A DNA stretch of 53,651 bases from Candidatus Gottesmanbacteria bacterium (GCA_016195615.1 JACPZF010000015.1:1-53651); one strand, 5' to 3'. Counted from the stretch's first letter, positions 3,827 through 51,790 are shown. A program made the numbers and translations. Notes: generated by a model not told the origin, from the letters alone.

Positions 3827-3912
3827 CGTCATTCTGGTAAGCCGAAATTTATTTCGGCGCATCCAGAATCAGTCCAATTTATTTTAGCGATTCTGGACAA
3901 GCCAGAATGACG
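3827..3912. repeat. nested-palindrome MITE-like element, intergenic copy
   Basis: CGTCATTCTGG..(GCCGAAAT/TTTCGGC hairpin)..TCCAGAATC..GATTCTGGAcaagCCAGAATGACG. The same termini and core recur at 16467-16605, 46069-46125 and 51482-51548. Confidence 0.8.
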
Positions 3913-12909: not shown

Positions 12910-13748
12910 TTTCTTTAGAGCCTAAAATTATTTACGAAGACGAACAACTCTTAGTCATTGCTAAACCGACCGGAATGGTTGTTAACAAGGCAGATACGAC
13001 GAGGAACGAATTTACTTTGCAAGAGTGGCTAGATCGTTATTATTCTTCGACCCGCCAGCAGGCGGGGAGAAGTCAAAAAGATAGTTCTCGTCGAGTCAGA
13101 CTCGACTCGAACAGTAAAGCAGCGGAAACAAACGAGTTTTTTGCAAGAAGTGGCATTGTGCACAGATTGGATAAAGATACGAGCGGCGTACTTATTATTG
13201 CCAAAACAGAAGAAGCTTTTATAAACCTGCAAGGCCAATTTAAAAATAGAGAGGTACAAAAAAAATATCTTGCCCTGGTTCACGGTACTATCGAACCTAA
13301 AAGCGGTACGATTAACATTCCAATTGAAAGAAACCCTTTTAATCGCAAAAGATTTGGCGTTTTTTTAGGAGGTCGGGAGGCGGTGACGGAGTATAACACA
13401 ATGTCAAATTACAAATTACAAATGACAAATGACAAACGACAAACAACTAATAACTATACTCTATTGGAAGTCTTTCCGCACACAGGCAGAACACATCAAA
13501 TTCGTGTCCACCTCATGCATCTTGGGCACCCGATTGTTTCTGATATACTGTATGCAGGAAGGAAAAATATTAAAGCGGATTTAAAATTTTGCCCGCGTCT
13601 ATTTTTGCACGCGGAAAAGATCGAGTTTAAACATCCTAAAACGAGTAAGATAATGGAGTTTAGTTCTAAGTTGCCAAAGGAATTAGAGAAAGTATTACTG
13701 TCATTGCGAGTCACGTTCATGTTAACTGAACGTGACGAAGCAATCTGA
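12906..13748 (+). CDS. RluA-family pseudouridine synthase (RluD-like, no S4 domain) with repeat-encoded inserts
   Basis: HRLDKDTSGVLIIAK catalytic motif and GRTHQIRVHLMHLGHPIVSD. The inserts are encoded at about 13045-13140 and 13397-13450, and a palindrome encodes the last 14 codons. Confidence 0.85.
   Translation: MISLEPKIIYEDEQLLVIAKPTGMVVNKADTTRNEFTLQEWLDRYYSSTRQQAGRSQKDSSRRVRLDSNSKAAETNEFFARSGIVHRLDKDTSGVLIIAKTEEAFINLQGQFKNREVQKKYLALVHGTIEPKSGTINIPIERNPFNRKRFGVFLGGREAVTEYNTMSNYKLQMTNDKRQTTNNYTLLEVFPHTGRTHQIRVHLMHLGHPIVSDILYAGRKNIKADLKFCPRLFLHAEKIEFKHPKTSKIMEFSSKLPKELEKVLLSLRVTFMLTERDEAI
13704..13743. repeat. palindromic element forming the 3' end of the pseudouridine synthase ORF
   Basis: TTGCGA-GTCACGTTCA-tgttaac-TGAACGTGAC-GAAGCAA ends 3 nt before the TGA stop. 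It shares its loop with the hairpin at 6089-6115. Confidence 0.65.
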
Positions 13749-15494: not shown

Positions 15495-17220
<1,726 letters not shown>

Positions 17221-22687: not shown

Positions 22688-24883
22688 ATGGATATTTCTG
22701 ATGGCATCAGGCGCTTTTTGGAATACTTAGAGATCGAACGCAACTGTTCAACTTTGACCATTCGCGACTATGAGCACTACCTAAACACCTTTGACGACTG
22801 GACGAGGGCAAATAGCCAGGTAGAAAAGGTCGAAGACATTGATGACGAACACATACGTCAATTTCGGCTGTTTCTGGCTCGTAAAGCTGACAAGCACGGC
22901 CGTTTTCTGAAACGAATTACGCAAAATTATTACGTCATTGCCTTAAGAGCTTTTTTAAGATATTTAATCAAGCAAGACGTCAAAACATTAGCACCGGAAA
23001 AAATTGATTTACCCAAAACCGAAAGCCGGTCGTTAAAATTTTTAAACGAAGAACAGCTTCATCGTTTACTTACGGCAATTGATATTTCCACCAACTGGGG
23101 TTTAAGAGACAGGACAATGGTCGAAATGCTGTTTTCAACGGGCCTGCGGGTTTCAGAACTGTGTAAGCTTAACCGAAACCAGATAAATTTAGATTCTAGG
23201 GAAATTGGGGTTATTGGTAAAGGTCAAAGGGCCCGCGTGGTATTTTTGTCTGATCAGGCGGTGTTTTGGCTAAATAAGTACTTGGCAAAACGAACCGATG
23301 ATTTCTTCCCTTTATTTATAAGGTATAGTCAAAAAGTTGACGAGACTCCCCATGGCGAGAAAATGAGGTTGACGGCCCGAAGCGTGCAAAGAATGCTGGA
23401 AAAATATGTTTTGAAATCCCGCTTGCCAGTTAAGGCAACGCCGCATACATTGAGACATTGTTTAGAACCAAATACCAGAGTGTTTACCAAAGAGGTTGGT
23501 ATGGTATCTGCCAATGATTTATTTTTTTCTGAAAGTGCAAAAATCGAAGGTGTTAATTTAAAAAACGGAAATCAACAATCAGCAGAAATCACCAAAAAAT
23601 TAAGCCATATATCAGATTTGTATTCTGTTTGGGCCGATGGATACGAGATCGTATGTTCCGGAAAGCACTGGCTTTTTACAGTTGGATTGAACGGGCCCGA
23701 GGAAATATTGGTAAATAATTTAAAGTTAGGAGATTATATTTTAGGTGTTAACAAGGTGAATATTGTTGGTAAAACGTTTGTTGACATAGATATGGCAAGG
23801 TTAATTGGATATATTCTCGGCGACGGTGTTATCAGTGAAAAAAGACGCGGCGTTTTTATATTTGATAAAGATATAGATAACTTAAAATTTTATCAAAAGA
23901 TAATTCTCGATAAGCTGCAGGGTTTTATAACAGTTGCAAAAGCTAAAATCAGCAATAGTTATGTGCTTACTTATTATTCATTACCGTTTGTAAAATTTCT
24001 TATATCGCTTGGTTTGGATAAAAAAGCAAAAGAAAAACGGGTACCGTCCAAAATAGTTAATTCTTCAAATCAAGAAATCGCCTCTTTTTTATCAGGTTTT
24101 TATGATGCAGAGGGCAATTCAACTGGTTCTCCTAGATTTTTTTCATCCTCTAAACATCTTCTCAAAGATGTCCAGATGATGTTATTACGGTTAGGGATAG
24201 ATGCTCATTTAATGGAGCGAAAGAGAACTGTCACACTTCCGTCCGGCAGGCCCTATATCCATTTATTCTATACGCTACAAGTCCTGTCTTTTAATGATCA
24301 AAAGAGATTTATTAAACTAATTCCTACATTAAAAATAAAAACTTTAAAGGTATTTGGTAAGCGCGATTTTGATAAATTACCGGTAAACTTGCTATTAAAA
24401 GAAATTTACGAAGATTTGGAAAAAAACGGGAAAAAAGGTTTTCGTTATGCCTTGCAAATAAATGAAGGGATAAAATCTCCCAGATATTTTAAAGAAATGA
24501 CTCCCCTACGCTCAACCGTTGGAAAATTTATCCGCCAGATAGAGAAATTTAAGTTTAATTCAAAAACTTTTGAAAATTTAAAAATGTTTTATAAATCTCA
24601 AAATATGAAATGGTTAGAGGTGAAAAAGATAATAAGGTGGCCATCGCCACGAAACAGCGTGTTTGATTTCACTGTTTCTGAAATTAGTAATTTAATTACA
24701 GACGGAATTGTCAGTCACAATTCGTTTGCGACTGATCTTTTAATGAAAGGCGCTGATTTACGCAGCGTCCAAGAAATGCTAGGACATAAAAACGTTGGCA
24801 CCACCCAAATCTATACCCACGTCACCAATCCGCAGTTAAAAGAGGTTCATAAGAGATTTCACAGCGGGAACAAAAACAGATAA
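22688..24883 (+). CDS. xerC: XerC/XerD-type tyrosine recombinase interrupted by an intein
   Basis: SD aaggag. N-terminal SAM-like domain ([19 protein letters not shown]), catalytic Arg in TGLRVSEL, then HTLRH|intein|[34 protein letters not shown]. The exteins total 310 aa. Confidence 0.9.
23459..24721 (+). mobile_element. 421-aa intein with LAGLIDADG homing endonuclease
   Basis: Starts with Cys (CLEPNTRVF) and has block B GKHWLFT. LAGLIDADG motifs are [11 protein letters not shown] and [11 protein letters not shown]. It ends ..GIVSHN, followed by the +1 Ser of the C-extein. Confidence 0.85.
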
Positions 24884-26617: not shown

Positions 26618-27401
26618 ATCCGATTCCGGATCGGATTATATTAGCGATCCGGTAATTATTCGATAATTAAATGTTTTATTTTAGCTAAATCTCGTTGGTA
26701 ATCTTTTCTGGCCATTACAAATTTTTCGTAATCTTTTATCGAGCGAAATTGATCTAAAATTATTGATGGATAAACAAAGTCTAATTTTTCTAAACCAATA
26801 TAGTGTTTGTACGACGAATATGAATAATCTTCAGGTTTATCCACCAAATATGCGGTCACAGGATTTAAATGAATATATCTTGACAAGTGTAAAATTTGTT
26901 CGTCGGTTTCAACATGAACCGCTTCAAAATTTGGTTCAAAAAGTGGACCAGAAGTTTCGTGTTTAATATTAAAATAATGGGCATAGCTATTGGATATTTT
27001 ATGTAGAAACTTATAAATGCCAAAATCTTCAGTTTGTTGCAGAGTGAAATGAAAATGCGTTGGCATTATACAAAAATTTATTATTTTAACTAAACAGTAA
27101 CTAAAGTTTAATAAGTACTTGCTTCTGCATTTACGATAATTTGAAAACTTCGTCGCTGGTTTACTTTGAAGATAATATCTTGAAGATTCTAAAAAAAGAC
27201 TGGTTTCCTTTTCCCGATTAAATACAGGACGCTTATAGATCGATCGGTTAAAAACGTGATAGTATTCACCGGTAACAAATTGTATTTTTCTCAGACTCAC
27301 ATATCTAACATAACTCGATAAATATGATTCGTCAATATGGCAATATGTAAGTTTTAGAGGAAATACCCGGTTCGCGAAGCTATTCCGATCCCGGATCGGA
27401 A
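26618..27401 (-). mobile_element. IS200/IS605-family element (Y1 transposase flanked by matching subterminal hairpins)
   Basis: Hairpins ATCCGAT-tccgg-ATCGGAT (26618-26636) and TTCCGAT-cccgg-ATCGGAA (27383-27401) bracket the transposase ORF. The 784-nt span fits IS200-type size. Confidence 0.6.
26656..27300 (-). CDS. tnpA: IS200-like / REP-associated (RAYT-like) HUH tyrosine transposase
   Basis: YYHVFNRS.., the HUH motif MPTHFHF and the catalytic-Tyr region LSRYIHLNPV. Probable GTG start at 27300. The track N-terminal extension to 27483 runs through the left-end hairpin. Confidence 0.7.
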   Translation of the reverse strand: MSLRKIQFVTGEYYHVFNRSIYKRPVFNREKETSLFLESSRYYLQSKPATKFSNYRKCRSKYLLNFSYCLVKIINFCIMPTHFHFTLQQTEDFGIYKFLHKISNSYAHYFNIKHETSGPLFEPNFEAVHVETDEQILHLSRYIHLNPVTAYLVDKPEDYSYSSYKHYIGLEKLDFVYPSIILDQFRSIKDYEKFVMARKDYQRDLAKIKHLIIE

Positions 27402-27415
27402 GAAGATACTTAATT

Positions 27416-27718
27416 TTAATTATCAACAAATAATCTTGCATGTACTGGAAAATCAATTCTTGCCTGTTCCTTAAGTTGATCAACTAGATCCCAATTTCTC
27501 TCATTGGCAGCTGCTTTCATTTTGGTTCTCCATCCAGCCCAAGGATTATCATCGGTATAATTATCTATAAGTGCTTGACCATGACCATCGTCTTTATATT
27601 GTTTTCTTAATGATTTCACGAGTCTATTTCTTGCTTCTGGTCCCCCCGGATATCCAATTTCGGAAGCGTTTAAGGCCAAAATTGGCCTGTATTTTTCTTT
27701 AGCTAATTTTTCCGACAT
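27416..27718 (-). CDS. hypothetical 100-aa protein
   Basis: ORF directly downstream of gyrA. Its last codons abut or overlap the IS end, so the C-terminus may be altered by the insertion. Confidence 0.4.
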   Translation of the reverse strand: MSEKLAKEKYRPILALNASEIGYPGGPEARNRLVKSLRKQYKDDGHGQALIDNYTDDNPWAGWRTKMKAAANERNWDLVDQLKEQARIDFPVHARLFVDN

Positions 27719-34827: not shown

Positions 34828-36549
34828 GTGAAAAACGACAATAATGATCTTGCTAGAGTGCTTTTGTCGCAAAAGCTTCTTTCCCCCGAGCAAGCGGATT
34901 TAGTTCGTCTGGAAAGTGTTAATAAAGGCCAAAGAATTGAAGAGGTCATCAGGGCCCATAATTTTGTCGCGGAAGAACAACTAGCCAAAGCTAAAGCTGA
35001 GATTTTAGGCGTTTCCTACGTTTCTTTGGCGGCCAAAGGCATTTCCCCTGATATTTTAAATTACATTCCCGAACCAGTTGCCAGACGCTACATGGTATTG
35101 CCCTTTTCTTTTGACCAAAAAACGAGAATTCTTTCGGTAGCGATGAAAGATCCGGTGGACATTTCCGCCATTGAATTTCTAGAAAGCAAATCCGGTCTAG
35201 CCATCGAACCGTATCTGGCCCTAGAAAGCGAGCTTTCGCAAAAGATCGAAGAAGAATATTCCCAAAGTCTAACTTCGGAAGTCACGCAGGCATTAAATGA
35301 ATCAACTATTTCTACTAAAACCGAAGAAGATACCTCTAAATCCCTAGCCCAGACGATCACCGAAGCACCGATTGCCAAAATCGTTTCCACGATATTAGAT
35401 TACGCCGTCAAATCGCGCGCGTCAGATGTTCACATCGAACCCCAAGAAGAAAGAACCAGGGTGCGCTATCGTATCGACGGCATTTTGCACGAAAGATTGG
35501 CCTTGCCGAAAAAGGTCCACGACGCGGTCAGTTCCCGCATCAAAATTCTCGCCGACATGAAAATCGACGAGAGAAGAATTCCCCAGGATGGCCGTTTTTC
35601 CTTCTCCAGCGGTGATCAGGAGGTGGATTTGCGCGTTTCCTCGCTTCCTACCGTTTATGGTGAAAAAATTGTCATGCGGCTTCTGAAAAAAAGCGGCGGC
35701 GTTCCAACCTTGCCTGAACTTGGCTTAAGAGGAACGGCGCTAAAAAACCTGGAAAACGCCACACTTCGGCCCCACGGTATTATTTTAATTACCGGACCAA
35801 CCGGATCGGGAAAAACTACGACTCTCTACTCGATTTTAACCAAATTAAATACGGCGAAAGTCAACATCGTGACTTTGGAGGATCCGGTTGAATATCAAAT
35901 CGGTGGGGTTAATCAGGTCCAAATAAATCCGGCTGCCGGGTTAACTTTTGCTTCTGGGCTGCGTTCCTTTTTGCGTCAAGACCCTAACATTATTATGGTC
36001 GGTGAGATTCGGGACACAGAAACAACTGATTTGGCTATTCAGGCGGCCTTAACAGGGCACTTAGTATTTTCTACTCTTCATACCAACAACGCTTCCGGAG
36101 CTTTGCCCAGGCTTTTGGATATGCATGCAGAGCCTTATTTAGTCGCCTCGGCTCTTAACGCCGTGGTGGGTCAACGCGTAGTCCGACGGATTTGTAATTT
36201 TTGTAAAGAAGAATACGAACCGCCGGAGCCAATTGTCAGCGATCTAAAATTAGTCCTTGGTAAATTATTTCCTGACTCAGCGCAGCAAAAAACTAGCAAA
36301 CTTGTTCTCTATAAAGGTAAAGGCTGCGATGAATGCAGCGCTACCGGGTATCAAGGCCGAATTGGAGTTTATGAAGTATTGCCGATAGACGAAAAAGTGG
36401 GCAGATTGGTATTAGAGCACGCTTCGACCGGCGACATTGAAGCCAAAGCGATCGAGGAGGGTATGATTACGATGAAACAAGATGGGTATTTAAAAATTAT
36501 TGAAGGCATTACGACCGTGGAAGAAGTACTGCGGGTGGCGCAGGATTAA
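34828..36549 (+). CDS. pilB: type IV pilus assembly ATPase PilB (GspE family)
   Basis: N-terminal MshEN-like domain, Walker A GPTGSGKTTT, LEDPVEY, Walker B MVGEIRD, His box GHLVFSTLHTN and a tetracysteine CNFC..CDEC. GTG start. Confidence 0.9.
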   Translation: MKNDNNDLARVLLSQKLLSPEQADLVRLESVNKGQRIEEVIRAHNFVAEEQLAKAKAEILGVSYVSLAAKGISPDILNYIPEPVARRYMVLPFSFDQKTRILSVAMKDPVDISAIEFLESKSGLAIEPYLALESELSQKIEEEYSQSLTSEVTQALNESTISTKTEEDTSKSLAQTITEAPIAKIVSTILDYAVKSRASDVHIEPQEERTRVRYRIDGILHERLALPKKVHDAVSSRIKILADMKIDERRIPQDGRFSFSSGDQEVDLRVSSLPTVYGEKIVMRLLKKSGGVPTLPELGLRGTALKNLENATLRPHGIILITGPTGSGKTTTLYSILTKLNTAKVNIVTLEDPVEYQIGGVNQVQINPAAGLTFASGLRSFLRQDPNIIMVGEIRDTETTDLAIQAALTGHLVFSTLHTNNASGALPRLLDMHAEPYLVASALNAVVGQRVVRRICNFCKEEYEPPEPIVSDLKLVLGKLFPDSAQQKTSKLVLYKGKGCDECSATGYQGRIGVYEVLPIDEKVGRLVLEHASTGDIEAKAIEEGMITMKQDGYLKIIEGITTVEEVLRVAQD

Positions 36550-36590
36550 AAAAATTTTAAGTTTTTAATTCTTAATTTTTAATAAAATCT

Positions 36591-37652
36591 ATGGAACTTG
36601 CAACTTTATTACAAACCATCCTAACTGCGCGGGGTTCGGATCTACATTTATTGGCTAACCTCTTGCCGATGATTAGAGTTGATGGCGATCTAAGCCCCAT
36701 TGCGGGCCAAAACATGATCAGTGCCGACGATGTTAAGACGCTTTTGTTTTCCATTATGAGCGAGGAGCAAAAAGAATTATTTTTAGCTAATAAAGAGATT
36801 GATTTCTCCTATGCTTTTTCCGATGCGGCGCGGTTTCGCGTCAATGTTTATTGCCAAAAAGGGACTTTTGGAGCCGCTTTCCGTCTAATTCCCATGAAGA
36901 TACCATCGCTTACTGATATTAATTTGCCAGATATTACCCATGTCTTTGCCAGCTTAAAGCAGGGATTTATTCTCGTTACCGGGCCGACAGGACACGGCAA
37001 ATCTACTACTCTCGCCGCGATTATTAACGAAATCAACCGAACTAGAAGAACGCATATTGTAACAATTGAAGACCCGATTGAATATATTTTTAAACCCGAG
37101 TTAAGTATTATTTCTCAGCGCGAAATGCATCTCGATACCCATTCTTGGGATCTGGCGCTAAGGAGTGTTTTACGTGAAGATCCTGATGTGGTACTGGTTG
37201 GCGAGATGAGAGATCTCGAAACCATTCGCGCGGCGATGACGGTTGCCGAAACCGGCCATTTAGTTTTAGCAAGCCTGCATACTAACAGTGCGAGTCAGAC
37301 CATCGATCGTATCGTGGGGGTATTTCCAGAAGAGGAACAACAGCAAGTCAGATTGCAACTAGCGAGTACGTTGGAAGGAATAATTTCGCAAAGACTTATT
37401 CCTTTAGTAAGCGGCGGTCGCATCCCGGCGGTGGAAATCTTAACCGCTACGGCAGCGATTAAAACCGTCATTCGCGAGGGGAAAAATCATCTCATCGACA
37501 ACATCATTCAGACTTCGGCGGAATCGGGGATGATTTCTCTAGACAAATCGCTGGCGAGATTAGTACTTAACAATAAAGTTAGTAAAGATGTCGCCATGGC
37601 TTATTCTCTGCACCCCGAAGATTTTGTCAGCATCTTAAGAGAAAAGAAATAA
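36591..37652 (+). CDS. pilT: twitching-motility retraction ATPase PilT
   Basis: GSDLHL, GPTGHGKSTT, IEDPIEY, LVGEMRD and GHLVLASLHTN. Length is 353 aa. Confidence 0.9.
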   Translation: MELATLLQTILTARGSDLHLLANLLPMIRVDGDLSPIAGQNMISADDVKTLLFSIMSEEQKELFLANKEIDFSYAFSDAARFRVNVYCQKGTFGAAFRLIPMKIPSLTDINLPDITHVFASLKQGFILVTGPTGHGKSTTLAAIINEINRTRRTHIVTIEDPIEYIFKPELSIISQREMHLDTHSWDLALRSVLREDPDVVLVGEMRDLETIRAAMTVAETGHLVLASLHTNSASQTIDRIVGVFPEEEQQQVRLQLASTLEGIISQRLIPLVSGGRIPAVEILTATAAIKTVIREGKNHLIDNIIQTSAESGMISLDKSLARLVLNNKVSKDVAMAYSLHPEDFVSILREKK

Positions 37653-37655
37653 ATT

Positions 37656-38861
37656 ATGCCCATTTATCGATACAAAGTACGAGACCACGGGAGTAAAACG
37701 TTGCAAGGAAACATCGAAGCTAAAGACCCTCGGGTGGCGGCGGTGCTACTTCGCGAGCGGGGGCTTTTTATCATTGATATCGGTCTGCCGACAAAATTTA
37801 GCGTCGAAACCGTCAAGAGATATTTAACCAAAGTTTCCTATGGTGATATTGCGACTATGACGAGGCAGTTTGCGACGCTTATTACTTCCGGACTGCCGAT
37901 AATTGACGCGTTGTCTCTGCTTGGCGACCAAATGCAAAACCCCATACTTTCCGCTACGGTCGAAGGCATTAAACACGAAGTTGAAGGCGGATCGAATTTA
38001 GCAACGGCCTTTGAAAAACATCCCAATATTTTTAACCGTTTGTACATCTCACTTTTAAGAACCGGTGAGACTTCGGGAATGTTGGATAAAGTCTTAAGTA
38101 AATTAGCTGACAACATGGAAAAACAACGCGAATTTAATTCCAAAGTTAAAAGCGCTTTGGTCTACCCCATCATTGTTATCGGCGGCATGGGCTTAGTCGC
38201 TTTAATTATGATGATTTTCGTCATTCCCAAACTCACGGCTTTATACAAGGATTTAAACGTCGTTTTGCCCCTGCCGACGCGGATTTTAATCGCTGTCTCC
38301 AATTTTATGATTGGTTTTTGGTGGTTAATGATTTTAGCCATTTTCGGTTTAGGATTTCTTTATTCGGCTTGGCGCAAAACCGATCAGGGGCGCCAAATCA
38401 CCGATAGGCTTAAATTAAAAGTCCCGATCCTGGGACCTATTACGCAAAAAGTAAATCTGGCCCAGATTTGCCGTACCCTTGGCCTTCTCGTTGGCGCCGG
38501 CATTCCCATTATCGACAGCATTAATATTGTGGCTACGGCAACCGATAATGTTTTAATGGAAAAAGCTTTAAATTTTGCTTCCAAACACGTGGAAAAAGGA
38601 TTCCCTTTGGCGCAATCAATTGAACAAAAAGAGGTCTTTCCGCCGATTGTGGCCCAAATGATCAGGGTGGGCGAAGAAACCGGTAAATTAGACGATTCTC
38701 TTCTTAAACTTTCCTACTATTTTGAGAGCGAAAGCGAAGAGTTAATCAAGGGCTTGACAACTGCATTGGAGCCACTTATCATGATTGTATTGGGAGTGGG
38801 AGTTGGCTTTTTAGTCATCTCCATCATTCTTCCCATTTATAAAATTACCAGCGCGATATAA
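37656..38861 (+). CDS. pilC: type IV pilus platform protein PilC (GspF family)
   Basis: Two GspF repeats (..FATLITSGLPIIDAL.. and ..LGLLVGAGIPIIDSI..) and three TM segments. Length is 401 aa. Confidence 0.9.
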   Translation: MPIYRYKVRDHGSKTLQGNIEAKDPRVAAVLLRERGLFIIDIGLPTKFSVETVKRYLTKVSYGDIATMTRQFATLITSGLPIIDALSLLGDQMQNPILSATVEGIKHEVEGGSNLATAFEKHPNIFNRLYISLLRTGETSGMLDKVLSKLADNMEKQREFNSKVKSALVYPIIVIGGMGLVALIMMIFVIPKLTALYKDLNVVLPLPTRILIAVSNFMIGFWWLMILAIFGLGFLYSAWRKTDQGRQITDRLKLKVPILGPITQKVNLAQICRTLGLLVGAGIPIIDSINIVATATDNVLMEKALNFASKHVEKGFPLAQSIEQKEVFPPIVAQMIRVGEETGKLDDSLLKLSYYFESESEELIKGLTTALEPLIMIVLGVGVGFLVISIILPIYKITSAI

Positions 38862-38875
38862 GGAGGTTTAACAAT

Positions 38876-39451
38876 ATGAGGAAAGCCATCCAAAAAGGTT
38901 TTACGATGATCGAGCTTTTGGTGGTTATTGCGGTTATCGGCGTTATGGCCACCGCCGTTCTTTCAGCTATCAATCCTCTGGAACAAATCAATAAAGGCAA
39001 TGACACCGGTTTAAGATCAGATGCGGAGCAAGTCCTGGGTGCAGTAGATCGGTATTATTCATCATTAGCCTATTTCCCTTGGCAAAACGGGGCCAACGAT
39101 AACTTTGTCAACGTAGCCTGGCAAAACGTTATCGATCTAAATACTAATCGTTCGGCTTTAACCAATATGGAAAATACCCAGGAAATTAAACACGGATTTA
39201 CTCTCCGGCTGACAGATGTCAAGCGAACGCCGATTTATTTAATGTATGACAACAGTTCGGCTTCACCAACGATGTATGCTTGTTTTGTGCCCAAGTCAAA
39301 CTCGTTTTTGACAGAGGCATTTAATCGCTGCAAAGGTACAGCAGTTACGGCTGGGACGCCATTTGGAGCAACCGGCGAAGCATGTGCGGGGACTGTTGGA
39401 GCAAGTACAACTTGCAATACGACCAAAAACTGCTACGTTTGTCTGCCGTAA
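38876..39451 (+). CDS. type IV pilin (candidate major pilin)
   Basis: Strong SD aaggagg and the prepilin motif KG|FTMIELLVVIAVIGVMA. First pilin gene after pilBTC, with a Cys-rich C-terminus. Confidence 0.85.
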   Translation: MRKAIQKGFTMIELLVVIAVIGVMATAVLSAINPLEQINKGNDTGLRSDAEQVLGAVDRYYSSLAYFPWQNGANDNFVNVAWQNVIDLNTNRSALTNMENTQEIKHGFTLRLTDVKRTPIYLMYDNSSASPTMYACFVPKSNSFLTEAFNRCKGTAVTAGTPFGATGEACAGTVGASTTCNTTKNCYVCLP

Positions 39452-40437
39452 AAGGTTGGGCGATACAGAGCGCCGCGGCTTGTACCTAATTTTATAAGGA
39501 AACCTTCCTTAAGCAATTGACTTACATCATAATGAAGCGTGCTTTTAGGAATTTTTTGAAAACGGCGTTTGAGAAAATCAAAAGAAACAATTTGGTGATT
39601 TCTGACGATCTCTAAAATTTCCCGTCGCCTGGGAAGAAGCCAGTCCTCTACGGTTTCGGTTTTGGCATTTTTAAGTTTTTCCATGGTCTTATCAGTTTGG
39701 AATTGTAATCCCTCTAAAAAAAATTCCACAAATTCGGTGACGTCTTTTTTATTTAGAGCCAAAAGATCATAGTAAGTTTGCCTTTTTGATTCTAAATATT
39801 CTTCTAAAGATACTAGTCCGCGAAAACCAAACCCGGAATTTTTTAAAATTAAAGTGGCCAAAAGTCTTCCGGTCCGACCGTTTCCGTCTAAAAAGGGATG
39901 AATTTTTTCAAAGGCAAAATGGTAAGTGGCGGCGTTCACCGGACCCTCATCTTCTGAAGAATTTATTTTTGCTACCAAGGTTTTGATTAAGGAAGGTATC
40001 TTTGACGCCGGAGGTGTAAGATAAACTGCAACTTGGGCCTGACTAAAAATCGCGGAAGGTTCGCGGCGCCACTCTCCCGCTTCGGGGGAAAGATTGGCCA
40101 AAACATACCCATGCAGTTTAAGAATTGTCGAATAAGACAATTTTTTTGGTGCCTTGGAATAGACCCAAGTAAGGCCTTTCAGAACGTTGGCCACTTCAAT
40201 TTTAGCGATATTTTTGGCGTTCCTTTGTAAAGAGATAAAACTTAAGTCTTCCAGACGCAATTTGTTGCCCTCAATCCGGGCAGAAAAAAGCGAGCTTTTA
40301 AGAAGTGACTCGCGCCGGAGATTCTCTTCAAGATGAGGCGATGACGGCAGCAAAGCGATAACCCTAGCCATAACTTTCAGCTCTTCCATGGCTTTGGCGA
40401 TGACCTTTGTGCGGCGGTAGTAGTAATCCAATTTCAT
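39433..40437 (-). CDS. Fic-family protein (AMPylase-type) with C-terminal wHTH-like region
   Basis: Fic motif HPFLDGNGRTGRLL. Antisense to the pilus genes, with a convergent 19-nt overlap on the pilin gene 3' end. Confidence 0.85.
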   Translation of the reverse strand: MKLDYYYRRTKVIAKAMEELKVMARVIALLPSSPHLEENLRRESLLKSSLFSARIEGNKLRLEDLSFISLQRNAKNIAKIEVANVLKGLTWVYSKAPKKLSYSTILKLHGYVLANLSPEAGEWRREPSAIFSQAQVAVYLTPPASKIPSLIKTLVAKINSSEDEGPVNAATYHFAFEKIHPFLDGNGRTGRLLATLILKNSGFGFRGLVSLEEYLESKRQTYYDLLALNKKDVTEFVEFFLEGLQFQTDKTMEKLKNAKTETVEDWLLPRRREILEIVRNHQIVSFDFLKRRFQKIPKSTLHYDVSQLLKEGFLIKLGTSRGALYRPTFYGRQT

Positions 40438-40520
40438 ATTAAATAATCTTAGAAGATATTAGAAGTTATTGCAAGATATTGAAGGATTTTTAGAGTCGTC
40501 TCTGTTATAATTCTTTCGTT

Positions 40521-41966
40521 ATGCTCTATCGTTTAGTTGATTTGGTTTTGGCCAAAAAAAATCTGGCGTTTTTTTTAATTCTTTTCATGCTGGGTTTGTT
40601 TGTGGTCTTCCCGACTTACGACCCGGATTTGGGCTGGCATATCGCTTACGGCAATTATTTTTGGCAAAACCATAAACTATTAACAAGCGATATTTTTTCC
40701 TGGACCCTAGCTGATTTTAAGTGGTTTAGCATTTCCTGGCCTTATGATCTTTTAGTAAGTTTGGTTTTTCCTAAAGGAGAATTTTTGGCCTTGTCATTAA
40801 TCGCGGTGGCAGTAATTCTTCTGACTTTTTGCTTTCTCGTCAAACCTTTTAAACTTTCCTTTTTTTGGTTAGTAATGGCATCGTTAGTATTTATTTTTTT
40901 TGTCCAACCACTAGCCAGCCCGGGTTTTAGAGTTCAGCTTTTTGAACTGCTTTTTTTAGCCGTAGCGACAAGTCTTATTTGGTCGTATGAAAAAGGTCAA
41001 AAAGTAGTAGTTTGGTACTTTCCTCTTTTAATGATCGGTTGGATCAATCTTCATGGCTCATTTATCATGGGACTCTTTTTAATCGGTTCTTACGTAGTTG
41101 TTAAAAACTTAAGTTCAACGTTAAACGCGCAGCAAAAAATAGTTTTAAATTTAATTTTACTACTTACTATTCTAGCTGTTTTTATCAATCCTTACGGTCT
41201 GGCGCTTTTTAAACAAATTGTAAATTATGCCCCCATTTTGCGAACTACCGGCGTTAATGAATGGCAGCCGGAAAGCATTTTTTCCGATAAGTGGCTGATG
41301 CTTTTAGTCTGGACGGCCCTCCTCATCGTTATCGTTTTAAAAAACCGCCGCGATCATTTTGGTTTGTATCAAGCTGTTATCGTTTTGCTATTTGCTTTTT
41401 TAGGTTTTAATTCGAGAAGAATGATCACGCCGTATGTGGTTGTTTCTTTACCCCTGGTATTAAATTTTATTCATGGTCTAAATTTTAAAATAAGCAAAAA
41501 AGCAAATTTGATGGCTTTAGTAATTATCATGAGTGCTATCGTCAATGGACTTTTTAATCGACTTCCCTCTTTGCATTTTTTAAAGACCAATCTTAATGAA
41601 TACTGCCAAATTGGACTGCATTGTTCTCCGGAAGCGATGAGCTTTATTAAAAAAAATCCTTTACCGAAAAAAAGTCTAACTTTTTATAACTGGGGCGGTT
41701 ATTTAATTTGGCAAACGGAAAGTCGCGTTTTTGTCGACGGCCGGATGGACCAATGGGAAAAAGAGGGTTTTAGTGCTTTTAGCGATCACGAAAAGATTTT
41801 GCAAAAAGACGATTTAGATCTTTTTAATAAATATAATTTCGACGCCGTCTATATCCCACCTACTTTTCGTTTGGCAGCGTATCTAGAAAAACAAACAGAG
41901 CAAGGGAAATGGGCTAAGGTTTTTGGCGATGATCGCGCGGTCATTTTTGAGAAAAAAAAGTTATGA
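40521..41966 (+). CDS. polytopic membrane protein, GT-C-like glycosyltransferase candidate
   Basis: About 11 TM segments, an acidic motif in the first extracytoplasmic loop (YDPDLGWH) and a soluble C-terminal domain (YNWGGYLIW..FVDGRMDQW). The family assignment is tentative. Confidence 0.4.
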   Translation: MLYRLVDLVLAKKNLAFFLILFMLGLFVVFPTYDPDLGWHIAYGNYFWQNHKLLTSDIFSWTLADFKWFSISWPYDLLVSLVFPKGEFLALSLIAVAVILLTFCFLVKPFKLSFFWLVMASLVFIFFVQPLASPGFRVQLFELLFLAVATSLIWSYEKGQKVVVWYFPLLMIGWINLHGSFIMGLFLIGSYVVVKNLSSTLNAQQKIVLNLILLLTILAVFINPYGLALFKQIVNYAPILRTTGVNEWQPESIFSDKWLMLLVWTALLIVIVLKNRRDHFGLYQAVIVLLFAFLGFNSRRMITPYVVVSLPLVLNFIHGLNFKISKKANLMALVIIMSAIVNGLFNRLPSLHFLKTNLNEYCQIGLHCSPEAMSFIKKNPLPKKSLTFYNWGGYLIWQTESRVFVDGRMDQWEKEGFSAFSDHEKILQKDDLDLFNKYNFDAVYIPPTFRLAAYLEKQTEQGKWAKVFGDDRAVIFEKKKL

Positions 41967-43519: not shown

Positions 43520-43557
43520 TTGAAAAAATACATCTTTAATGCTAGTATTACTATAGC

Positions 43558-44073
43558 ATGCGTAAATCTGCCTTTACCCTTATCGAACTAATGATTGCCG
43601 TAACCATTGTTGCCATAATTGCTGGAATTTTTGCCTTAAATGTGTCTGGAAATTTAGCTAAGGCCCGAGATGCAAAAAGGAAAAGTGATTTAAGAGCTCT
43701 TAAAACTTCCCTAGATCTTTATTACAATGTTAACAACCTCTACCCTCCTTCGGAATCGAGTTGGCCGCCTTTTTCCGGGGATAATCGCATTAAAGGCTGT
43801 GGGGCTTTAACTACACCTCTTAATTGCAATTGGGGAACGCCATGGGTTCAGGATGGAGTAACCTATATGGGAGTCTTACCTAAAGATCCTCAATCGCAAT
43901 GGTCCTACTATTATCTACGTGCGCCGCAAGGCCGCTTAAGTTATATTATGGTGGCTAAATTGGAAAGAGGTTTTGATCCGGATACTGCCGCGTCGCAAAG
44001 CAATTGTCAGGATACGACTTATGGTTTTGTCTATTCTGACCCATCGTGGTATGTGGTGTGTGATGCGAGGTAG
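43558..44073 (+). CDS. prepilin-type N-terminal cleavage/methylation domain protein (pilin)
   Basis: MRKSA|FTLIELMIAVTIVAIIAG. Extended -10 TGcTAGTAT lies 9 nt upstream of the ATG. Confidence 0.8.
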   Translation: MRKSAFTLIELMIAVTIVAIIAGIFALNVSGNLAKARDAKRKSDLRALKTSLDLYYNVNNLYPPSESSWPPFSGDNRIKGCGALTTPLNCNWGTPWVQDGVTYMGVLPKDPQSQWSYYYLRAPQGRLSYIMVAKLERGFDPDTAASQSNCQDTTYGFVYSDPSWYVVCDAR

Positions 44074-44078
44074 ATAAT

Positions 44079-46020: not shown

Positions 46021-46023
46021 AAT

Positions 46024-46638
46024 ATGTCGATACGAGTTTTGCACTTAAATATGTTACTTTGCTCTAATCGTCATTCTGGTAAGCGAAGCGCATCCAGAAT
46101 CAGATTCTGGACAAGCCAGAATGACAGTAGAAAAGCCCCAGGTTACACTTTAATCGAAATTTTAATTGTTTTTAGTATCATCGGCTTGGTTTCGGTTTTT
46201 GGTTTGAATTTTTTAACAACAATTCTTCGGGGTAATTCCAAAACTGCCGTCACCACGGAAATAAAACAAAACGGCAATTACGCGCTCGATATTATCAGCT
46301 ACTTCATTAGAAACGCCCTAAGTATTGATAATTGCTCAGCGTCTTCGCTTTCACTTCGGCAATGGGATAATTCCATCGTAACTTTTTTGCTCCTTCCCCA
46401 GGTGGATGCAGTATCAAGCAGATTAAACGCCAGAATAGCGAGCAATTCCTCGGTTTTAACTAACGCCGACGCGACTAACGGCGTTAGCGTGTCGGGTTTA
46501 AGTTTTACTTGCACGAACACCTCTCCTCCCGTTGTCTCGATTGGTTTTCAAGTTAGCCAGTCAGCTTTTTTGCCCGATCGACCGGAACTAAAAGGCATGG
46601 TCAATTTTCAAACCAGCGTGTCTTTACGGACCTATTAA
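46024..46638 (+). CDS. minor pilin-like protein whose leader peptide is encoded by a MITE copy
   Basis: Prepilin motif ..KAPG|YTLIEILIVFSIIGLV. No start codon lies between the repeat element and the motif, so translation must begin at 46024 or 46051 and read through the element. Confidence 0.65.
   Translation: MSIRVLHLNMLLCSNRHSGKRSASRIRFWTSQNDSRKAPGYTLIEILIVFSIIGLVSVFGLNFLTTILRGNSKTAVTTEIKQNGNYALDIISYFIRNALSIDNCSASSLSLRQWDNSIVTFLLLPQVDAVSSRLNARIASNSSVLTNADATNGVSVSGLSFTCTNTSPPVVSIGFQVSQSAFLPDRPELKGMVNFQTSVSLRTY
46069..46125. repeat. nested-palindrome MITE-like element, shortest copy
   Basis: CGTCATTCTGGtaagcgaagcgcATCCAGAATCaGATTCTGGAcaagCCAGAATGAC, 57 nt or exactly 19 codons. Confidence 0.8.
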
Positions 46639-46672
46639 ACATTGATTTTATTTTAGATACTTTATAGAATAA

Positions 46673-49903: not shown

Positions 49904-51790
49904 TTACATTTTTTCAGGAGTTTCTATTCCCAATAGTTTCAAACCATTCTTTATCACTTGCGCAACCGCGGCAGTCATTCGTAGTCTTAATGCCCTACTA
50001 TCGTCTTTCGCTTTTAGAATAGGTAATTTATCATAAAAATAATTAAACTTTTGGGCCAAATCGTAGAGATAATTACAGATTAAGTTAGGCGCGTAATTTT
50101 GCGCGGCGCTTAAAACAACCTCGGGGAATTTATAAAGCGAACGAAGAATTGCCATCTCTTCATTTTCTACTTTAATTCCTTTATTCTTTAATTCTTTAAT
50201 TCTTGTACTCTTTGCCAGCACCGACTTCGCGCGGGCAAAGGTGTACTGGAGATAGGGTCCGCTGTTGCCTTCAAAGCTTAACGATTCGTCAAAATCGAAA
50301 GCAATATCTTGCATTCGTCCCACTTTTAAAATACTATATTTAACTGCCCCCACCGCCAACTGCTCGGCTACTTCATCTTTATTATCGCCGCTTGTTAATT
50401 TTGCATATCTCGCATTTTCCATAATATCTTTAATGCGGGCCCTTGCTTCATCCAAAAGATCATCAATGTAAACCACATTTCCCAGACGCGAACTCATTTT
50501 CCCTTTTCCTTTAATACTCATATAGCCATAAGCAATATGGACATAGTCCTCAACTTTTCCATTTCCTAATTGTTCGCATACCGCAAACATTTGTTTTAAA
50601 GCCAGAGATTGTTCCGGACCGATAACCCAATGTAGTTTATCGGGATGAAAAGTATCACGTTTCAATTTGGTAAGGGCTAAGTCTTGGGTGATATAAAGTG
50701 CGGTACCGTCAGATTTAATAACAACCGTGTTTGGTATTTGGTATTTTTCTAGATCAGTTAAAATGGTTCCTTCCGAAGTTATTTTAAAAATGCCTAGCTT
50801 TAATCCTTTATCCACCATGTCTTTTCCCATTTGGTAATGCTCGTGTTCGTGCCAAACTTTATCCCACTTATTTCCAAGTCTTTTTAGAGTTAGTTCTTGT
50901 CCTTGGTAGGAGTAGGCCAAAACTTTTTTCCAAAGCTCCCAATTTTTTGGTTCTTTATTTTCCCAATCAAGGACTAATTTGCGGACGGCATCTTCGGTTT
51001 CCTTTTTGTTTTCAAAATCATCTGCTGCCAGCGTATATAATTCGTCAATAAATTTGTCAGGCCGTAGCTTTCGATCCTGTGAAGATTGCCATTCGGTTTG
51101 ATGGTCGTACCAATAATTAATATCAGTAATTTGCTTATCGTCCTTTTTAGCAAACTTAAGATAGCCCCACATTAATTTAGCAATAGCAATGCCGCGGTTA
51201 TTATCGATACAATCACGAACAGTTTTTAATCCGACAAATTCCCAAGTGTTGGCAATGGCCATTCCCGTGACATTATTTCGCAAATGCCCTAAGTGTAAGG
51301 CCTTATTTGGATTGGGAGAGGTATGTTCTACCAGCCATTTTTTACCAACGCCCCAGTCAGACGAACCAAAATTATTTTTTTGTTCGTCAATATGAGATAG
51401 CTTGGCAAGTAAGAAATTATTGCTCAGCCAAAAATTGATAAAACCCGGGCCTGCGATTTCGATTTTGGAAACAATTCTTTTCGTCATTCTGGGGACCCGC
51501 CAACTGGCGGGGACTCCAGAATCTGATTCTGGACAAGCCAGAATGACGCGTAATTCCTTAACTATTTTTTCCGCGATTTTCCTGGTGTTTTCTTTCTTAA
51601 TACTTAATACTTGATTCTTAATACTTAATGCAATGTTAGTAGCATAGTCCCCATGCGCTTCATCCACTGGATGCTCCAAATGGATATCTTCGATTTTTAA
51701 CCCGCTCTCGGACCACAATTTAGTAACGGCTTTATGTAAAGCCATAATAATTTCATACGAAACAAAATCTTTTGGCGGTAAGTTTGTCAT
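49904..51790 (-). CDS. argS: arginine--tRNA ligase with three repeat-encoded in-frame inserts
   Basis: HIGH region HTSPNPNKALHLGHLRN, KMSKS-like KMSSRLGN and a C-terminal anticodon-binding domain ending ..LGIETPEKM. Length is 628 aa. Confidence 0.9.
   Translation of the reverse strand: MTNLPPKDFVSYEIIMALHKAVTKLWSESGLKIEDIHLEHPVDEAHGDYATNIALSIKNQVLSIKKENTRKIAEKIVKELRVILACPESDSGVPASWRVPRMTKRIVSKIEIAGPGFINFWLSNNFLLAKLSHIDEQKNNFGSSDWGVGKKWLVEHTSPNPNKALHLGHLRNNVTGMAIANTWEFVGLKTVRDCIDNNRGIAIAKLMWGYLKFAKKDDKQITDINYWYDHQTEWQSSQDRKLRPDKFIDELYTLAADDFENKKETEDAVRKLVLDWENKEPKNWELWKKVLAYSYQGQELTLKRLGNKWDKVWHEHEHYQMGKDMVDKGLKLGIFKITSEGTILTDLEKYQIPNTVVIKSDGTALYITQDLALTKLKRDTFHPDKLHWVIGPEQSLALKQMFAVCEQLGNGKVEDYVHIAYGYMSIKGKGKMSSRLGNVVYIDDLLDEARARIKDIMENARYAKLTSGDNKDEVAEQLAVGAVKYSILKVGRMQDIAFDFDESLSFEGNSGPYLQYTFARAKSVLAKSTRIKELKNKGIKVENEEMAILRSLYKFPEVVLSAAQNYAPNLICNYLYDLAQKFNYFYDKLPILKAKDDSRALRLRMTAAVAQVIKNGLKLLGIETPEKM
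51482..51548. repeat. nested-palindrome MITE-like element, copy inside argS
   Basis: CGTCATTCTGGggaCCCGCCaactGGCGGGgaCTCCAGAATCtGATTCTGGAcaagCCAGAATGACG, read on the minus strand as ..RVILACPESDSGVPASWRVPRMTKR.. Confidence 0.8.

What the first reader, a model, noticed from the sequence alone, without database searches (positions are those of the whole stretch)
3827..3912. Nested-palindrome MITE-like family (CGTCATTCTGG...CCAGAATGACG): four copies in 53 kb, three inside ORFs
Copies lie at 3827-3912 (3' UTR/intergenic), 16467-16605 (tgt), 46069-46125 (minor pilin) and 51482-51548 (argS). All share 10-11-nt terminal inverted repeats, an internal inverted repeat TCCAGAATC/GATTCTGGA and an invariant caag linker. 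The slot after the left terminus is variable: GCCGAAAT/TTTCGGC, a non-hairpin filler, CCCGCCaactGGCGGG, or CCGCCagttGGCGG. The ATTCTGG/CCAGAAT core therefore occurs four times in alternating orientation, allowing two mutually exclusive folds. The three coding copies are read in different frames and orientations, and all stay open. This resembles Rickettsia palindromic elements, which insert in frame into genes, but the modular variable-hairpin design is not something I can assign to a described family.
Basis: partly seen in the sequence, partly recalled or inferred. Interest (0 to 1): 0.75.

Follow-up and report, generated by a model that had tools for sequence, protein, structure and literature searches.

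The report
Nuclease-linked hairpin repeats inside essential genes
The four nested palindromes are real: each is a gene-less miniature of a roughly 400-bp cassette (hairpin, small GIY-YIG single-strand DNA nuclease gene, inverted hairpin), and three sit in frame inside essential genes of a tiny candidate-phylum bacterium, which extends a recently characterised repeat/nuclease system to new phyla.

Summary
Four copies lie at the stated coordinates, and three are in frame in tgt, a prepilin leader and argS. None of the tgt or argS orthologues I aligned (identity down to about 50%) carries the inserts.

Each copy is an inverted pair of one hairpin unit, (C/T)GTC-ATTCTGG-loop-CCAGAAT-C. The left unit has a long, variable loop. 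The right unit has the loop CTTGT, which reads "acaag" on the + strand.

This unit has the build of the "CGTC-tagged REPs" (Di Nocera 2013: Neisseria dRS3, Rickettsia RPE-4/-6). It also has the build of the NTS/"Ssn-related motifs" that GIY-YIG single-strand nucleases bind and cut (Chenal 2025).

In related genomes and metagenomes the same two units, in the same polarity, bracket a ~100-aa GIY-YIG gene. Of 69 such genes, 40 have both units in the expected orientation. The window copies therefore look like nuclease-less derivatives of that cassette.

They show no target-site duplication and no transposase partner, so they are not classical MITEs. They are not tied to the RAYT-like gene in the window. 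No nuclease gene lies in the window.

How they move is inferred, not shown.

Verdict: a new member of a known kind, moderately interesting.

The parts
3827..3912 (+). Copy 1, intergenic doublet. Left long-loop unit 3827-3870 (loop hairpin GCCGAAAT/TTTCGGC), spacer 3871-3888, right short-loop unit 3889-3912 (GATTCTGGAcaagCCAGAATGACG).
16466..16605 (+). Copy 2, inside tgt. Left unit 16466-16513 (loop hairpin CCGCCagttGGCGG), spacer 16514-16521, right unit 16522-16605. The right unit's loop carries a nested ~60-nt module (16535-16594) made of two 15-nt tandem duplications.
46069..46126 (+). Copy 3, inside the leader peptide of a type IV prepilin, upstream of the G|YTLIE cleavage motif. Left unit 46069-46101 (loop taaGCGAAGCgca), 1-nt spacer, right unit 46103-46126.
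51482..51548 (+). Copy 4, inside argS and antisense to that gene. Left unit 51482-51523 (loop hairpin CCCGCCaactGGCGGG), 1-nt spacer, right unit 51525-51548.
13699..13745 (+). Single related unit of a different stem type (TGTCATTGCGAG-[TCACGTTCA..TGAACGTGA]-CGAAGCAATC). It supplies the last ~16 codons of the pseudouridine synthase ORF; the stop codon follows directly at 13746-13748. Units of this type flank other GIY-YIG genes in metagenome loci L175, L181, L184 and L188.
15811..17220 (+). Host gene tgt (469 aa). The insert is about residues 219-264.
46024..46638 (+). Host gene for a minor prepilin. There is no in-frame start codon inside or after the element, so translation must run through it.
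49904..51790 (-). Host gene argS (628 aa). The insert RVILACPESDSGVPASWRVPRMT lies in the N-terminal domain.

Best explanation
Each copy is an inverted pair ('doublet') of a CGTC-tagged hairpin repeat of the Ssn-related-motif kind. The copies are nuclease-less miniatures of a ~400-bp cassette: [long-loop hairpin unit] - ssn (a ~100-aa GIY-YIG single-strand DNA nuclease) - [short-loop hairpin unit, inverted].

Proposed mechanism. When DNA is single-stranded (replication, DNA uptake, cruciform extrusion), each unit folds into a 7-bp hairpin with an unpaired 5' (C/T)GTC tag and a 3' C. A cognate Ssn enzyme, encoded elsewhere in the genome, would bind this hairpin in one orientation only and nick a few nucleotides 5' of the tag. 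Because the two units are inverted, the two nick sites fall just outside the two ends of the doublet, on opposite strands. Those nicks delimit the unit that gets copied or moved. Copies that land in genes survive only where the added length keeps the frame and the peptide sits in a tolerant loop or in a leader peptide that is cleaved off.

Shown here: the anatomy; the hairpin-ssn-hairpin architecture in relatives; orientation-specific linkage to ssn; lineage-specific insertion; recurrent in-frame copies in housekeeping genes.

Inferred: that an Ssn acts on these particular units, and that this is what spreads them. The joining step is unknown, since GIY-YIG enzymes do not ligate.
For: 1. Unit anatomy equals that of the Neisseria NTS. 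Compare CGTC-ATTCTGG-CTTGT-CCAGAAT-C with CGTCATTCCCGCGMAVGCGGGAATCYRG.

2. In L038, L065 and L069, and in 12 metagenome loci, a GIY-YIG gene sits exactly between GTCATTCTGG-[long loop]-CCAGAATC and GATTCTGGacaagCCAGAATGAC. The gene is confirmed as GIY-YIG (Pfam PF01541, E 5e-12).

3. Of 69 metagenomic ssn loci with enough flank, 48 have a forward unit upstream, 50 have an inverted unit downstream, and 40 have both. In the opposite orientation the counts are 12 and 11. This parallels the 71% and 42% reported for SsnA homologues.

4. The closest Ssn relatives carry ATTCTGG units. More distant ones carry ATTCCCGCGAAAGCGGGAAT, which is NTS-like.

5. The invariant residues Y7, Y17 and E64 of the CPR proteins match the SsnA positions Y6, Y17 and E64 (two GIY-YIG tyrosines and a predicted cofactor site) whose mutation abolished cleavage.

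6. The exact 23-mer of the right unit occurs in more than 117 contigs from many phyla, where about 0.02 would be expected by chance (my estimate).

7. Insertion is lineage-specific. The Tgt insert has no counterpart in solved Tgt structures and is modelled as disordered, with pLDDT below 50.

8. 13 of 123 units in other genomes lie deep inside intact housekeeping genes: ArgS, UvrC, TrmD, GuaA, DNA ligase, prepilin peptidase, TatD and others.
Against: - No GIY-YIG gene is in the window (hmmsearch), and the rest of the genome could not be examined.
- The published degenerate SRM pattern does not match these units: 0 matches in the window.
- Nobody has shown that Ssn enzymes mobilise anything. 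The only demonstrated role is restriction of transforming ssDNA in Neisseria.
- GIY-YIG nucleases cut but do not join.
- Intragenic copies do not share one length class modulo 3. Either the junctions are imprecise or they were repaired afterwards.
- The closest orthologues available are only 78-79% identical, so no nucleotide-exact empty site was obtained.
- When the whole element is single-stranded, the nested fold is favoured over the two unit hairpins and buries the CGTC tags. For copy 3 the values are -17.4 against about -12 kcal/mol.
Confidence: 0.7

Rival explanations
1. The doublets are the primary, older repeat, spread by some other route such as recombination, replication slippage at hairpins or an unidentified enzyme. 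In this view ssn is a selfish homing-type endonuclease gene that inserts itself into doublet centres, so the short copies are empty homing sites rather than deletion derivatives.
For: Short doublets far outnumber ssn-bearing ones: 6 ssn ORFs in 5 of 117 loci. Some loci have a complete short doublet directly next to ssn (L123, L126, L130). GIY-YIG homing endonucleases are an established class (own knowledge; one search lists PMC12774661). Di Nocera 2013 found no dedicated transposase for CGTC repeats.
Against: The characterised Ssn enzymes are single-domain ssDNA nickases with no dsDNA activity. That differs from homing enzymes, which make double-strand breaks. The long-loop/short-loop polarity relative to ssn is conserved, which fits one common cassette.
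Confidence: 0.18
2. They are REPINs: REP doublets mobilised by the RAYT-like tyrosine (Y1/HUH) transposase encoded in the window at 26656-27483.
For: The architecture is an inverted doublet of hairpins, as in REPINs. A Y1_Tnp/REP-associated transposase-like ORF lies on the same contig (Pfam E 1.3e-6; NCBIfam REP_Tyr_transpos 51.9 bits, below its cut-off of 80).
Against: The tag is CGTC, not GTAG. The RAYT-like gene is flanked by its own unrelated inverted repeat (26619-26657 / 27362-27400) and not by ATTCTGG units. In other genomes the units bracket GIY-YIG genes instead. Di Nocera 2013 found no Y1 transposase gene flanked by CGTC units.
Confidence: 0.05
3. It is a classical MITE, cut and pasted through its 11-bp terminal inverted repeats by a DDE transposase encoded elsewhere.
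For: There are perfect 10-11-bp terminal inverted repeats, the element is small and it occurs in multiple copies.
Against: 34 doublets show no target-site duplication. The only flank preference is Y at -1 and R at +1, which belong to the hairpin tag. In Nitrospirota the partner unit has a different stem (ATTCCCG), so the 'TIR' shrinks to about 7 nt. No longer element with these ends carrying a transposase was seen.
Confidence: 0.03
4. It is a functional structured RNA (regulatory element, ribozyme or terminator), or an ancestral protein segment.
For: The predicted folds are strong. The intergenic copy lies between two genes on the same strand.
Against: There is no Rfam match. Copies occur in both orientations relative to host genes and in three reading frames. 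Orthologues lack the peptides. The same DNA occurs in unrelated genes. Ssn does not act on RNA.
Confidence: 0.03

Closest known systems
NTS / Ssn-related motifs (SRM) with SsnA GIY-YIG ssDNA nucleases (Chenal et al. 2025, Nat Commun, PMC11893778)
   Same: The unit has a CGTCAT head, a palindromic stem and an ATC tail. The units flank a ~95-100-aa single-domain GIY-YIG gene on both sides in inverted orientation. The nuclease positions Y, Y and E whose mutation abolished SsnA cleavage are conserved. The repeats occur in multiple copies.
   Different: The stem is ATTCTGG (7 bp) with a 5-nt CTTGT loop, and it fails the published degenerate SRM pattern. The hosts are Patescibacteria and Nitrospirota MAGs rather than RefSeq Pseudomonadati. 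The left unit carries long, modular loops. Tight doublets lacking ssn sit in frame inside essential genes. No enzyme activity has been tested on these units.
CGTC-tagged REPs (Di Nocera, De Gregorio, Rocco 2013, BMC Genomics, PMC3733652), including Neisseria dRS3 and Rickettsia RPE-4/RPE-6
   Same: There is an unpaired CGTC/TGTC tag. The stem starts with A-T and T-A pairs. The loop is short and the tail is short. The units form inverted dimers, including heterodimers with different loops. Some copies are intragenic and in frame, many in replication or repair genes.
   Different: The described families have 8-9-bp stems, 4-5-nt loops and a CCA-like tail, and are mostly alphaproteobacterial. Here the stem is 7 bp, one partner has a 13-25-nt structured loop, and the phyla are different.
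Rickettsia palindromic element RPE-1 (in-frame insertions in genes; own knowledge)
   Same: It is a palindromic repeat that inserts in frame into conserved genes and is tolerated in the protein.
   Different: RPE-1 is longer (~100-150 bp). Literature links RPE-4/-6, not RPE-1, to the CGTC superfamily.
REPINs with RAYT (REP doublets mobilised by Y1/HUH transposases)
   Same: Both are inverted doublets of hairpin repeats, with a single-copy enzyme gene bracketed by the repeats and recognition of hairpins on ssDNA.
   Different: The tag is GTAG rather than CGTC. The enzyme is an HUH tyrosine transposase, which forms a covalent intermediate and rejoins DNA, rather than a GIY-YIG nuclease, which only cuts.
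Classical bacterial MITEs (Correia/NEMIS, RUP, ERIC, Nezha)
   Same: They are small, have inverted termini, occur in many copies and can sit in or next to genes.
   Different: Classical MITEs have target-site duplications and a parental IS encoding a DDE transposase. Neither is found here.

Membership tests
CGTC-tagged REP superfamily | Unpaired CGTC (or TGTC) tag at one end of a short stem-loop | tested here: met
   All 8 units start with CGTC or TGTC. The ssDNA fold leaves the tag unpaired in the single unit.
CGTC-tagged REP superfamily | Stem of 8-9 bp starting with A-T and T-A pairs, loop of 4-5 nt, short unpaired tail (consensus CCA) | tested here: inconclusive
   The stem is 7 bp (ATTCTGG) and does start A-T, T-A. 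The right unit has a 5-nt loop, but left-unit loops are 13-25 nt. The tail is C followed by variable bases, not CCA.
CGTC-tagged REP superfamily | Frequent inverted dimers, including heterodimers, and some intragenic in-frame copies | tested here: met
   There are 4 doublets in the window. In other genomes 71 of 123 units have a partner within 150 nt. 13 of 123 lie inside intact genes.
Ssn-related motif (SRM) | Matches the published degenerate pattern HGTCWYN(0-2)YYVSBRHN(0-5)WNVSBRGN(0-2)RNCYNB | tested here: not met
   There are 0 matches in the window. The ATTCTGG units fail the pattern while an NTS example passes. The pattern was hand-built from 29 genomes, so failing it does not exclude the looser kinship.
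Ssn-related motif (SRM) | Flanks an ssn (GIY-YIG) gene on both sides in inverted orientation | tested here: met
   This was met in related loci, not in the window. L038, L065, L069 and L120-L136 show it directly. Of 69 loci, 40 have both units, against 12 and 11 in the opposite orientation.
Ssn-related motif (SRM) | An ssn homologue is present in the same genome | not testable with these tools
   There is none in the 53.6-kb window. Other contigs of this Gottesmanbacteria MAG could not be fetched.
Ssn-related motif (SRM) | Bound and cut as ssDNA, in one orientation, by the cognate Ssn | not testable with these tools
   This needs a biochemical assay.
Ssn nuclease family (the proteins in the related cassettes) | Single-domain GIY-YIG protein of ~94-100 aa with the two GIY-YIG tyrosines and the predicted cofactor-site glutamate conserved | tested here: met
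   Pfam GIY-YIG with E 5e-12 and 3e-11. Y7, Y17 and E64 are invariant, matching SsnA Y6, Y17 and E64. Assignment to CDD cd10448 was not tested because no CDD library was available, and NCBIfam gave no hit.
Classical MITE | Target-site duplication and a parental IS with the same termini encoding a transposase | tested here: not met
   34 doublets show no duplication. The only longer form carries a GIY-YIG gene.
REPIN/RAYT | GTAG tag, and a RAYT gene bracketed by the repeats | tested here: not met
   The tag is CGTC. The RAYT-like ORF 26656-27483 has its own unrelated inverted repeats.
Rickettsia palindromic elements | Sequence similarity to an RPE consensus | not tested
   No RPE consensus was at hand. 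The only link is the literature statement that RPE-4/-6 are CGTC repeats.

The most novel reading that the evidence does not exclude
The ~400-bp hairpin-ssn-hairpin cassette would be a self-propagating mobile element of a new mechanistic class, driven by a GIY-YIG single-strand DNA nickase rather than by a DDE, HUH, serine or tyrosine enzyme. It would have its own miniature, nuclease-less derivatives. Those derivatives would have crossed phylum boundaries, since an identical 23-mer occurs in Patescibacteria, Nitrospirota, Ignavibacteria and others. They would routinely colonise essential genes of reduced-genome CPR bacteria in frame.
Probability: 0.35. Interest if true: 0.8.

Novelty: new member of a known kind. 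Interest (0 to 1): 0.5.

Why it matters
In 2013, CGTC-tagged repeats were reported to lack a dedicated transposase. In 2025, the NTS-ssnA-NTS arrangement was noted to look like an insertion sequence, but that idea was left as a hypothesis.

This window and its relatives add the kind of evidence expected of a mobile element:
- a compact cassette with fixed polarity;
- short derivatives with identical ends;
- lineage-specific insertions in conserved genes;
- spread over many phyla.

The finding also shows that CPR/Patescibacteria proteins, often noted for odd insertions, acquire some of those insertions from translated hairpin repeats. This affects annotation, alignment and structure prediction for these genomes. 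For example, the peptides DSGQARMT, RHSGLSRI and VILACPES recur in unrelated proteins.

The published SRM search pattern misses this family, so the Ssn-linked repeat universe is larger than reported.

In Neisseria, Ssn limits transformation by DNA that carries the motif. The window encodes a type IV pilus cluster of the kind CPR bacteria use for DNA uptake. A role in controlling incoming DNA is therefore a testable idea, but it is speculation at this point.

Tried and rejected
- **Rfam at gathering threshold.** Only a tRNA was found; nothing matched at the elements.
- **Literature search by sequence fragments.** This produced the key lead. Searches for follow-up work linking Ssn to MITEs or RPEs found nothing.
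- **NCBIfam on the cassette proteins.** No family was hit.
- **PDB search with the Ssn profile.** It returned only weak matches to UPF0213 GIY-YIG proteins.
- **Covariance model and covariation count for the unit.** I started this (alignment A3) and abandoned it. The sequences had been selected for being hairpins, and I had padded their 3' tails, so any pair statistics would be circular.
- **Source assembly of the window.** The look-up was not on record, so I could not test whether ssn is present in the same genome.
- **Nucleotide-exact empty sites.** The nearest tgt orthologues are too diverged in that loop.
- **Viral contigs.** Only 3 hits came up, and I did not pursue them.
- **Splicing or excision at the RNA level.** I considered this and rejected it. 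The copies keep the host frame, and no start codon lies downstream of the pilin copy, which argues for translation through the insert.

Full report
**1. Observation**

The heptamer ATTCTGG/CCAGAAT occurs 24 times in the window, against 7.75 +/- 3.0 in dinucleotide-preserving shuffles. Sixteen of those occurrences are the four-per-copy alternating set. The 11-nt termini match exactly or with one mismatch.

Every copy folds far better than shuffled controls, both as RNA and as single-stranded DNA (z -4 to -9). The preferred fold has an outer stem that encloses the variable hairpin and the inner hairpin.

The window is a contig of a 'Candidatus Gottesmanbacteria' MAG, in the Patescibacteria/CPR.

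**2. Anatomy re-read**

Each copy is two inverted copies of one unit, (C/T)GTC-ATTCTGG-loop-CCAGAAT-C.
- The right unit always has the loop CTTGT.

Folded alone as ssDNA, a unit is a 7-bp hairpin with an unpaired 5' CGTC tag and a 3' C.

A scan for GTC + perfect 7-bp stem + C finds 13 units in the window, against 2.1 in simulated sequence. It also reveals one extra single unit of another stem type at 13699-13745. That unit provides the C-terminus of a pseudouridine synthase ORF, and the stop codon follows it directly.

**3. Distribution**

By my estimate, about 0.02 hits would be expected by chance in 596 Gb.

The hosts are:
- many Patescibacteria classes;
- Nitrospirota/Thermodesulfovibrionia;
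- a few MAGs labelled Ignavibacteria, Bacteroidota, Nitrospinota, Desantisbacteria, LCP-89 or Gammaproteobacteria.

In 71 of 123 cases a forward partner unit lies within 150 nt. The partner stem is ATTCCCG 33 times, ATTCTGG 22 times, and another stem type in the rest. The stems differ between families but always pair.

Only three viral contigs carry the 23-mer.

**4. What it belongs to**

A full-text search for sequence fragments led to Chenal et al. 2025 (PMC11893778). Their main points are as follows.
- The Neisseria NTS, CGTCATTCCCGCGMAVGCGGGAATCYRG, encompasses the dRS3 repeat.
- It is bound as ssDNA, in one orientation, by the 94-aa GIY-YIG nuclease SsnA.
- SsnA cuts a few nucleotides upstream of it.
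- Homologous genes across bacteria are flanked by 'Ssn-related motifs'.
- The authors note that NTS-ssnA-NTS looks like an insertion sequence.

Di Nocera et al. 2013 (PMC3733652) had classified such repeats as 'CGTC-tagged REPs'. Their class includes dRS3 and Rickettsia RPE-4/RPE-6. They recorded inverted dimers, heterodimers and intragenic in-frame copies, and found no dedicated transposase.

The window's unit shares the CGTCAT head, the palindromic stem and the ATC tail. However, it fails the published degenerate SRM pattern, which gives 0 matches in the window.

**5. The cassette**

Among the 117 genome loci, an HMM built from three candidate ORFs finds six GIY-YIG ORFs in five loci, and none in the window. 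Pfam confirms the domain (PF01541, E 5e-12).

In L038, L065 and L069 the gene sits exactly between GTCATTCTGG-[long loop]-CCAGAATC and GATTCTGGacaagCCAGAATGAC. The right unit often supplies the stop codon.

A metagenome scan with the protein alignment returned 80 loci. Of the 69 with enough flank:
- 48 have a forward unit within 160 nt upstream;
- 50 have an inverted unit at the 3' end;
- 40 have both;
- only 12 and 11 have a unit in the opposite orientation.

The closest relatives (L120-L136) carry ATTCTGG units with the long-loop unit upstream and the CTTGT-loop unit downstream. This is the same polarity as the window copies. They even show the same loop variants:
- L125 has CCCGCCagctGGCGGG;
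- L121 and L136 have the TCCTTCG...CTCAGGAC module in the right loop, as in the tgt copy.

More distant Ssn homologues carry NTS-like ATTCCCGCGAAAGCGGGAAT units.

The residues Y7, Y17 and E64 are invariant in the CPR proteins. They correspond to Y6, Y17 and E64 of SsnA, the two GIY-YIG tyrosines and a predicted cofactor-binding site whose mutation abolished cleavage.

The window's copies are therefore best read as nuclease-less derivatives of this cassette.

**6. Insertion in genes**

*tgt.* The 46-residue insert is absent from all 19 aligned orthologues. The two closest, at 78-79% identity, have no extra residues at that site. It falls in a loop that holds unrelated inserts in other lineages. 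It has no counterpart in solved Tgt structures. In an AlphaFold model it has pLDDT below 50 and lies between a confident helix and a confident strand.

*argS.* About 21 extra residues are absent from 15 orthologues.

*Prepilin.* The element lies in the leader peptide. No in-frame start codon lies inside or after it, so it must be translated. It would then be removed with the leader; this last point is inference from the G|YTLIE motif.

*Other genomes.* 13 of 123 units lie at least 60 codons inside long open frames. Pfam domains span the insertion points in ArgS (at a different site from the window's), UvrC (three units), TrmD, FemAB, GuaA, ATP-dependent DNA ligase, prepilin peptidase and TatD.

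**7. Rivals**

*Classical MITE.* 34 doublets show no target-site duplication. The only flank signal is Y at -1 and R at +1, which belong to the tag. No transposase-bearing parent was seen.

*REPIN/RAYT.* The window does encode a RAYT-like Y1 protein at 26656-27483. That gene is bracketed by its own unrelated inverted repeat and not by these units. The tag is also CGTC rather than GTAG.

*Structured RNA or ancestral peptide.* These are excluded by the orientation and frame diversity, the lack of Rfam matches and the orthologue comparisons.

*Homing endonuclease.* The serious rival is that ssn is a homing-type selfish gene using pre-existing doublets as landing sites. My data cannot separate this from 'the short copies are deletion derivatives'.

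**8. Limits**

- Mobility through Ssn is an inference. The enzyme family is only known to cut ssDNA, and the joining step is unexplained.
- Intragenic copies fall into different length classes modulo 3. Junctions are therefore either imprecise or later adjusted under selection.

**9. Verdict**

The 'MITE' label and the statement that it cannot be assigned to a family are not right.

It is a new member of the CGTC-tagged REP / Ssn-related-motif kind. It has a new stem type, occurs in new phyla and is missed by the published search pattern. The cassette/miniature relationship is unusually clear, and there is frequent in-frame colonisation of essential genes.

Noticed in passing
window 22688-24883 (+): A XerC/D-type tyrosine recombinase (731 aa) is interrupted by an intein carrying a LAGLIDADG homing endonuclease domain (Pfam Phage_integrase, Intein_splicing, LAGLIDADG_3).
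   Followed up: no
window 26619-27483 (-): A RAYT-like Y1/IS200-type transposase ORF (Pfam Y1_Tnp; NCBIfam REP-associated tyrosine transposase, below cut-off) is bracketed by its own 39-nt inverted repeat containing TCCGATCCCGGATCGGA (26619-26657 / 27362-27400). This repeat is unrelated to the ATTCTGG units.
   Followed up: partly
window 13699-13748 (+): A single hairpin unit of a second stem type (GTCATTGCGAG...GAAGCAATC) has a 9-bp nested hairpin in its loop. It encodes the last ~16 residues of the RluD-like ORF, and the stop codon follows at 13746-13748. The same unit type flanks other GIY-YIG genes in metagenome loci L175, L181, L184 and L188.
   Followed up: partly
window 3827-3912, 16466-16605, 46069-46126, 51482-51548: All four doublets have the same orientation on the + strand, with the long-loop unit first, regardless of host gene strand. 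Cumulative GC skew rises over most of the window. With only four copies this is not significant, but for an ssDNA-dependent system a replication-strand bias would be worth testing genome-wide.
   Followed up: no
window 46083-46089 and many loci (e.g. L078, L111, L120, L121): The basic left-unit loop contains GCGAAGC. This is the sequence known (own knowledge) as an exceptionally stable DNA mini-hairpin, which fits a function at the single-stranded DNA level.
   Followed up: no
window 16533-16595: The extra module in the right-unit loop of the tgt copy consists of two adjacent 15-nt tandem duplications. They give the peptide [20 protein letters not shown] related TCCTTCG...CTCAGGAC module sits at the same loop position in cassettes L121 and L136, which suggests nested insertion of a second hairpin family.
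   Followed up: partly
alignment A1 (tgt orthologues), columns ~240-290: The same Tgt loop carries unrelated, lineage-specific inserts in other CPR and Acetothermia orthologues (P0004, P0008, P0013, P0105). The annotated N-terminus of P0003 (MLRRYAPRND...) looks like read-through of another hairpin repeat. This loop seems to be a recurrent landing site.
   Followed up: no
L011 4130-5689 (a MAG labelled only 'bacterium', contig of 636 kb): One UvrC gene carries three separate in-frame units (peptide DSGQARMT, or YGQARMT, three times) and still has intact GIY-YIG, UVR, RNase H and HhH domains.
   Followed up: partly
one search hit list: Many close Ssn homologues sit on contigs of only ~0.7-1.5 kb. 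That pattern is expected if the cassette is multi-copy and breaks assemblies.
   Followed up: no
window 34828-47587: A large type IV pilus cluster is present: PilB/PilT/PilC-like ATPases and platform protein, plus at least six pilin genes with short leaders. One of these pilin genes hosts copy 3 (my reading of the translations). This may matter if Ssn-linked repeats modulate DNA uptake as they do in Neisseria.
   Followed up: no
window Tgt residues 97-142: A second low-confidence stretch in the Tgt model (pLDDT below 50) corresponds to a segment present in the CPR orthologues but absent from Z. mobilis Tgt. It is not a hairpin repeat.
   Followed up: no
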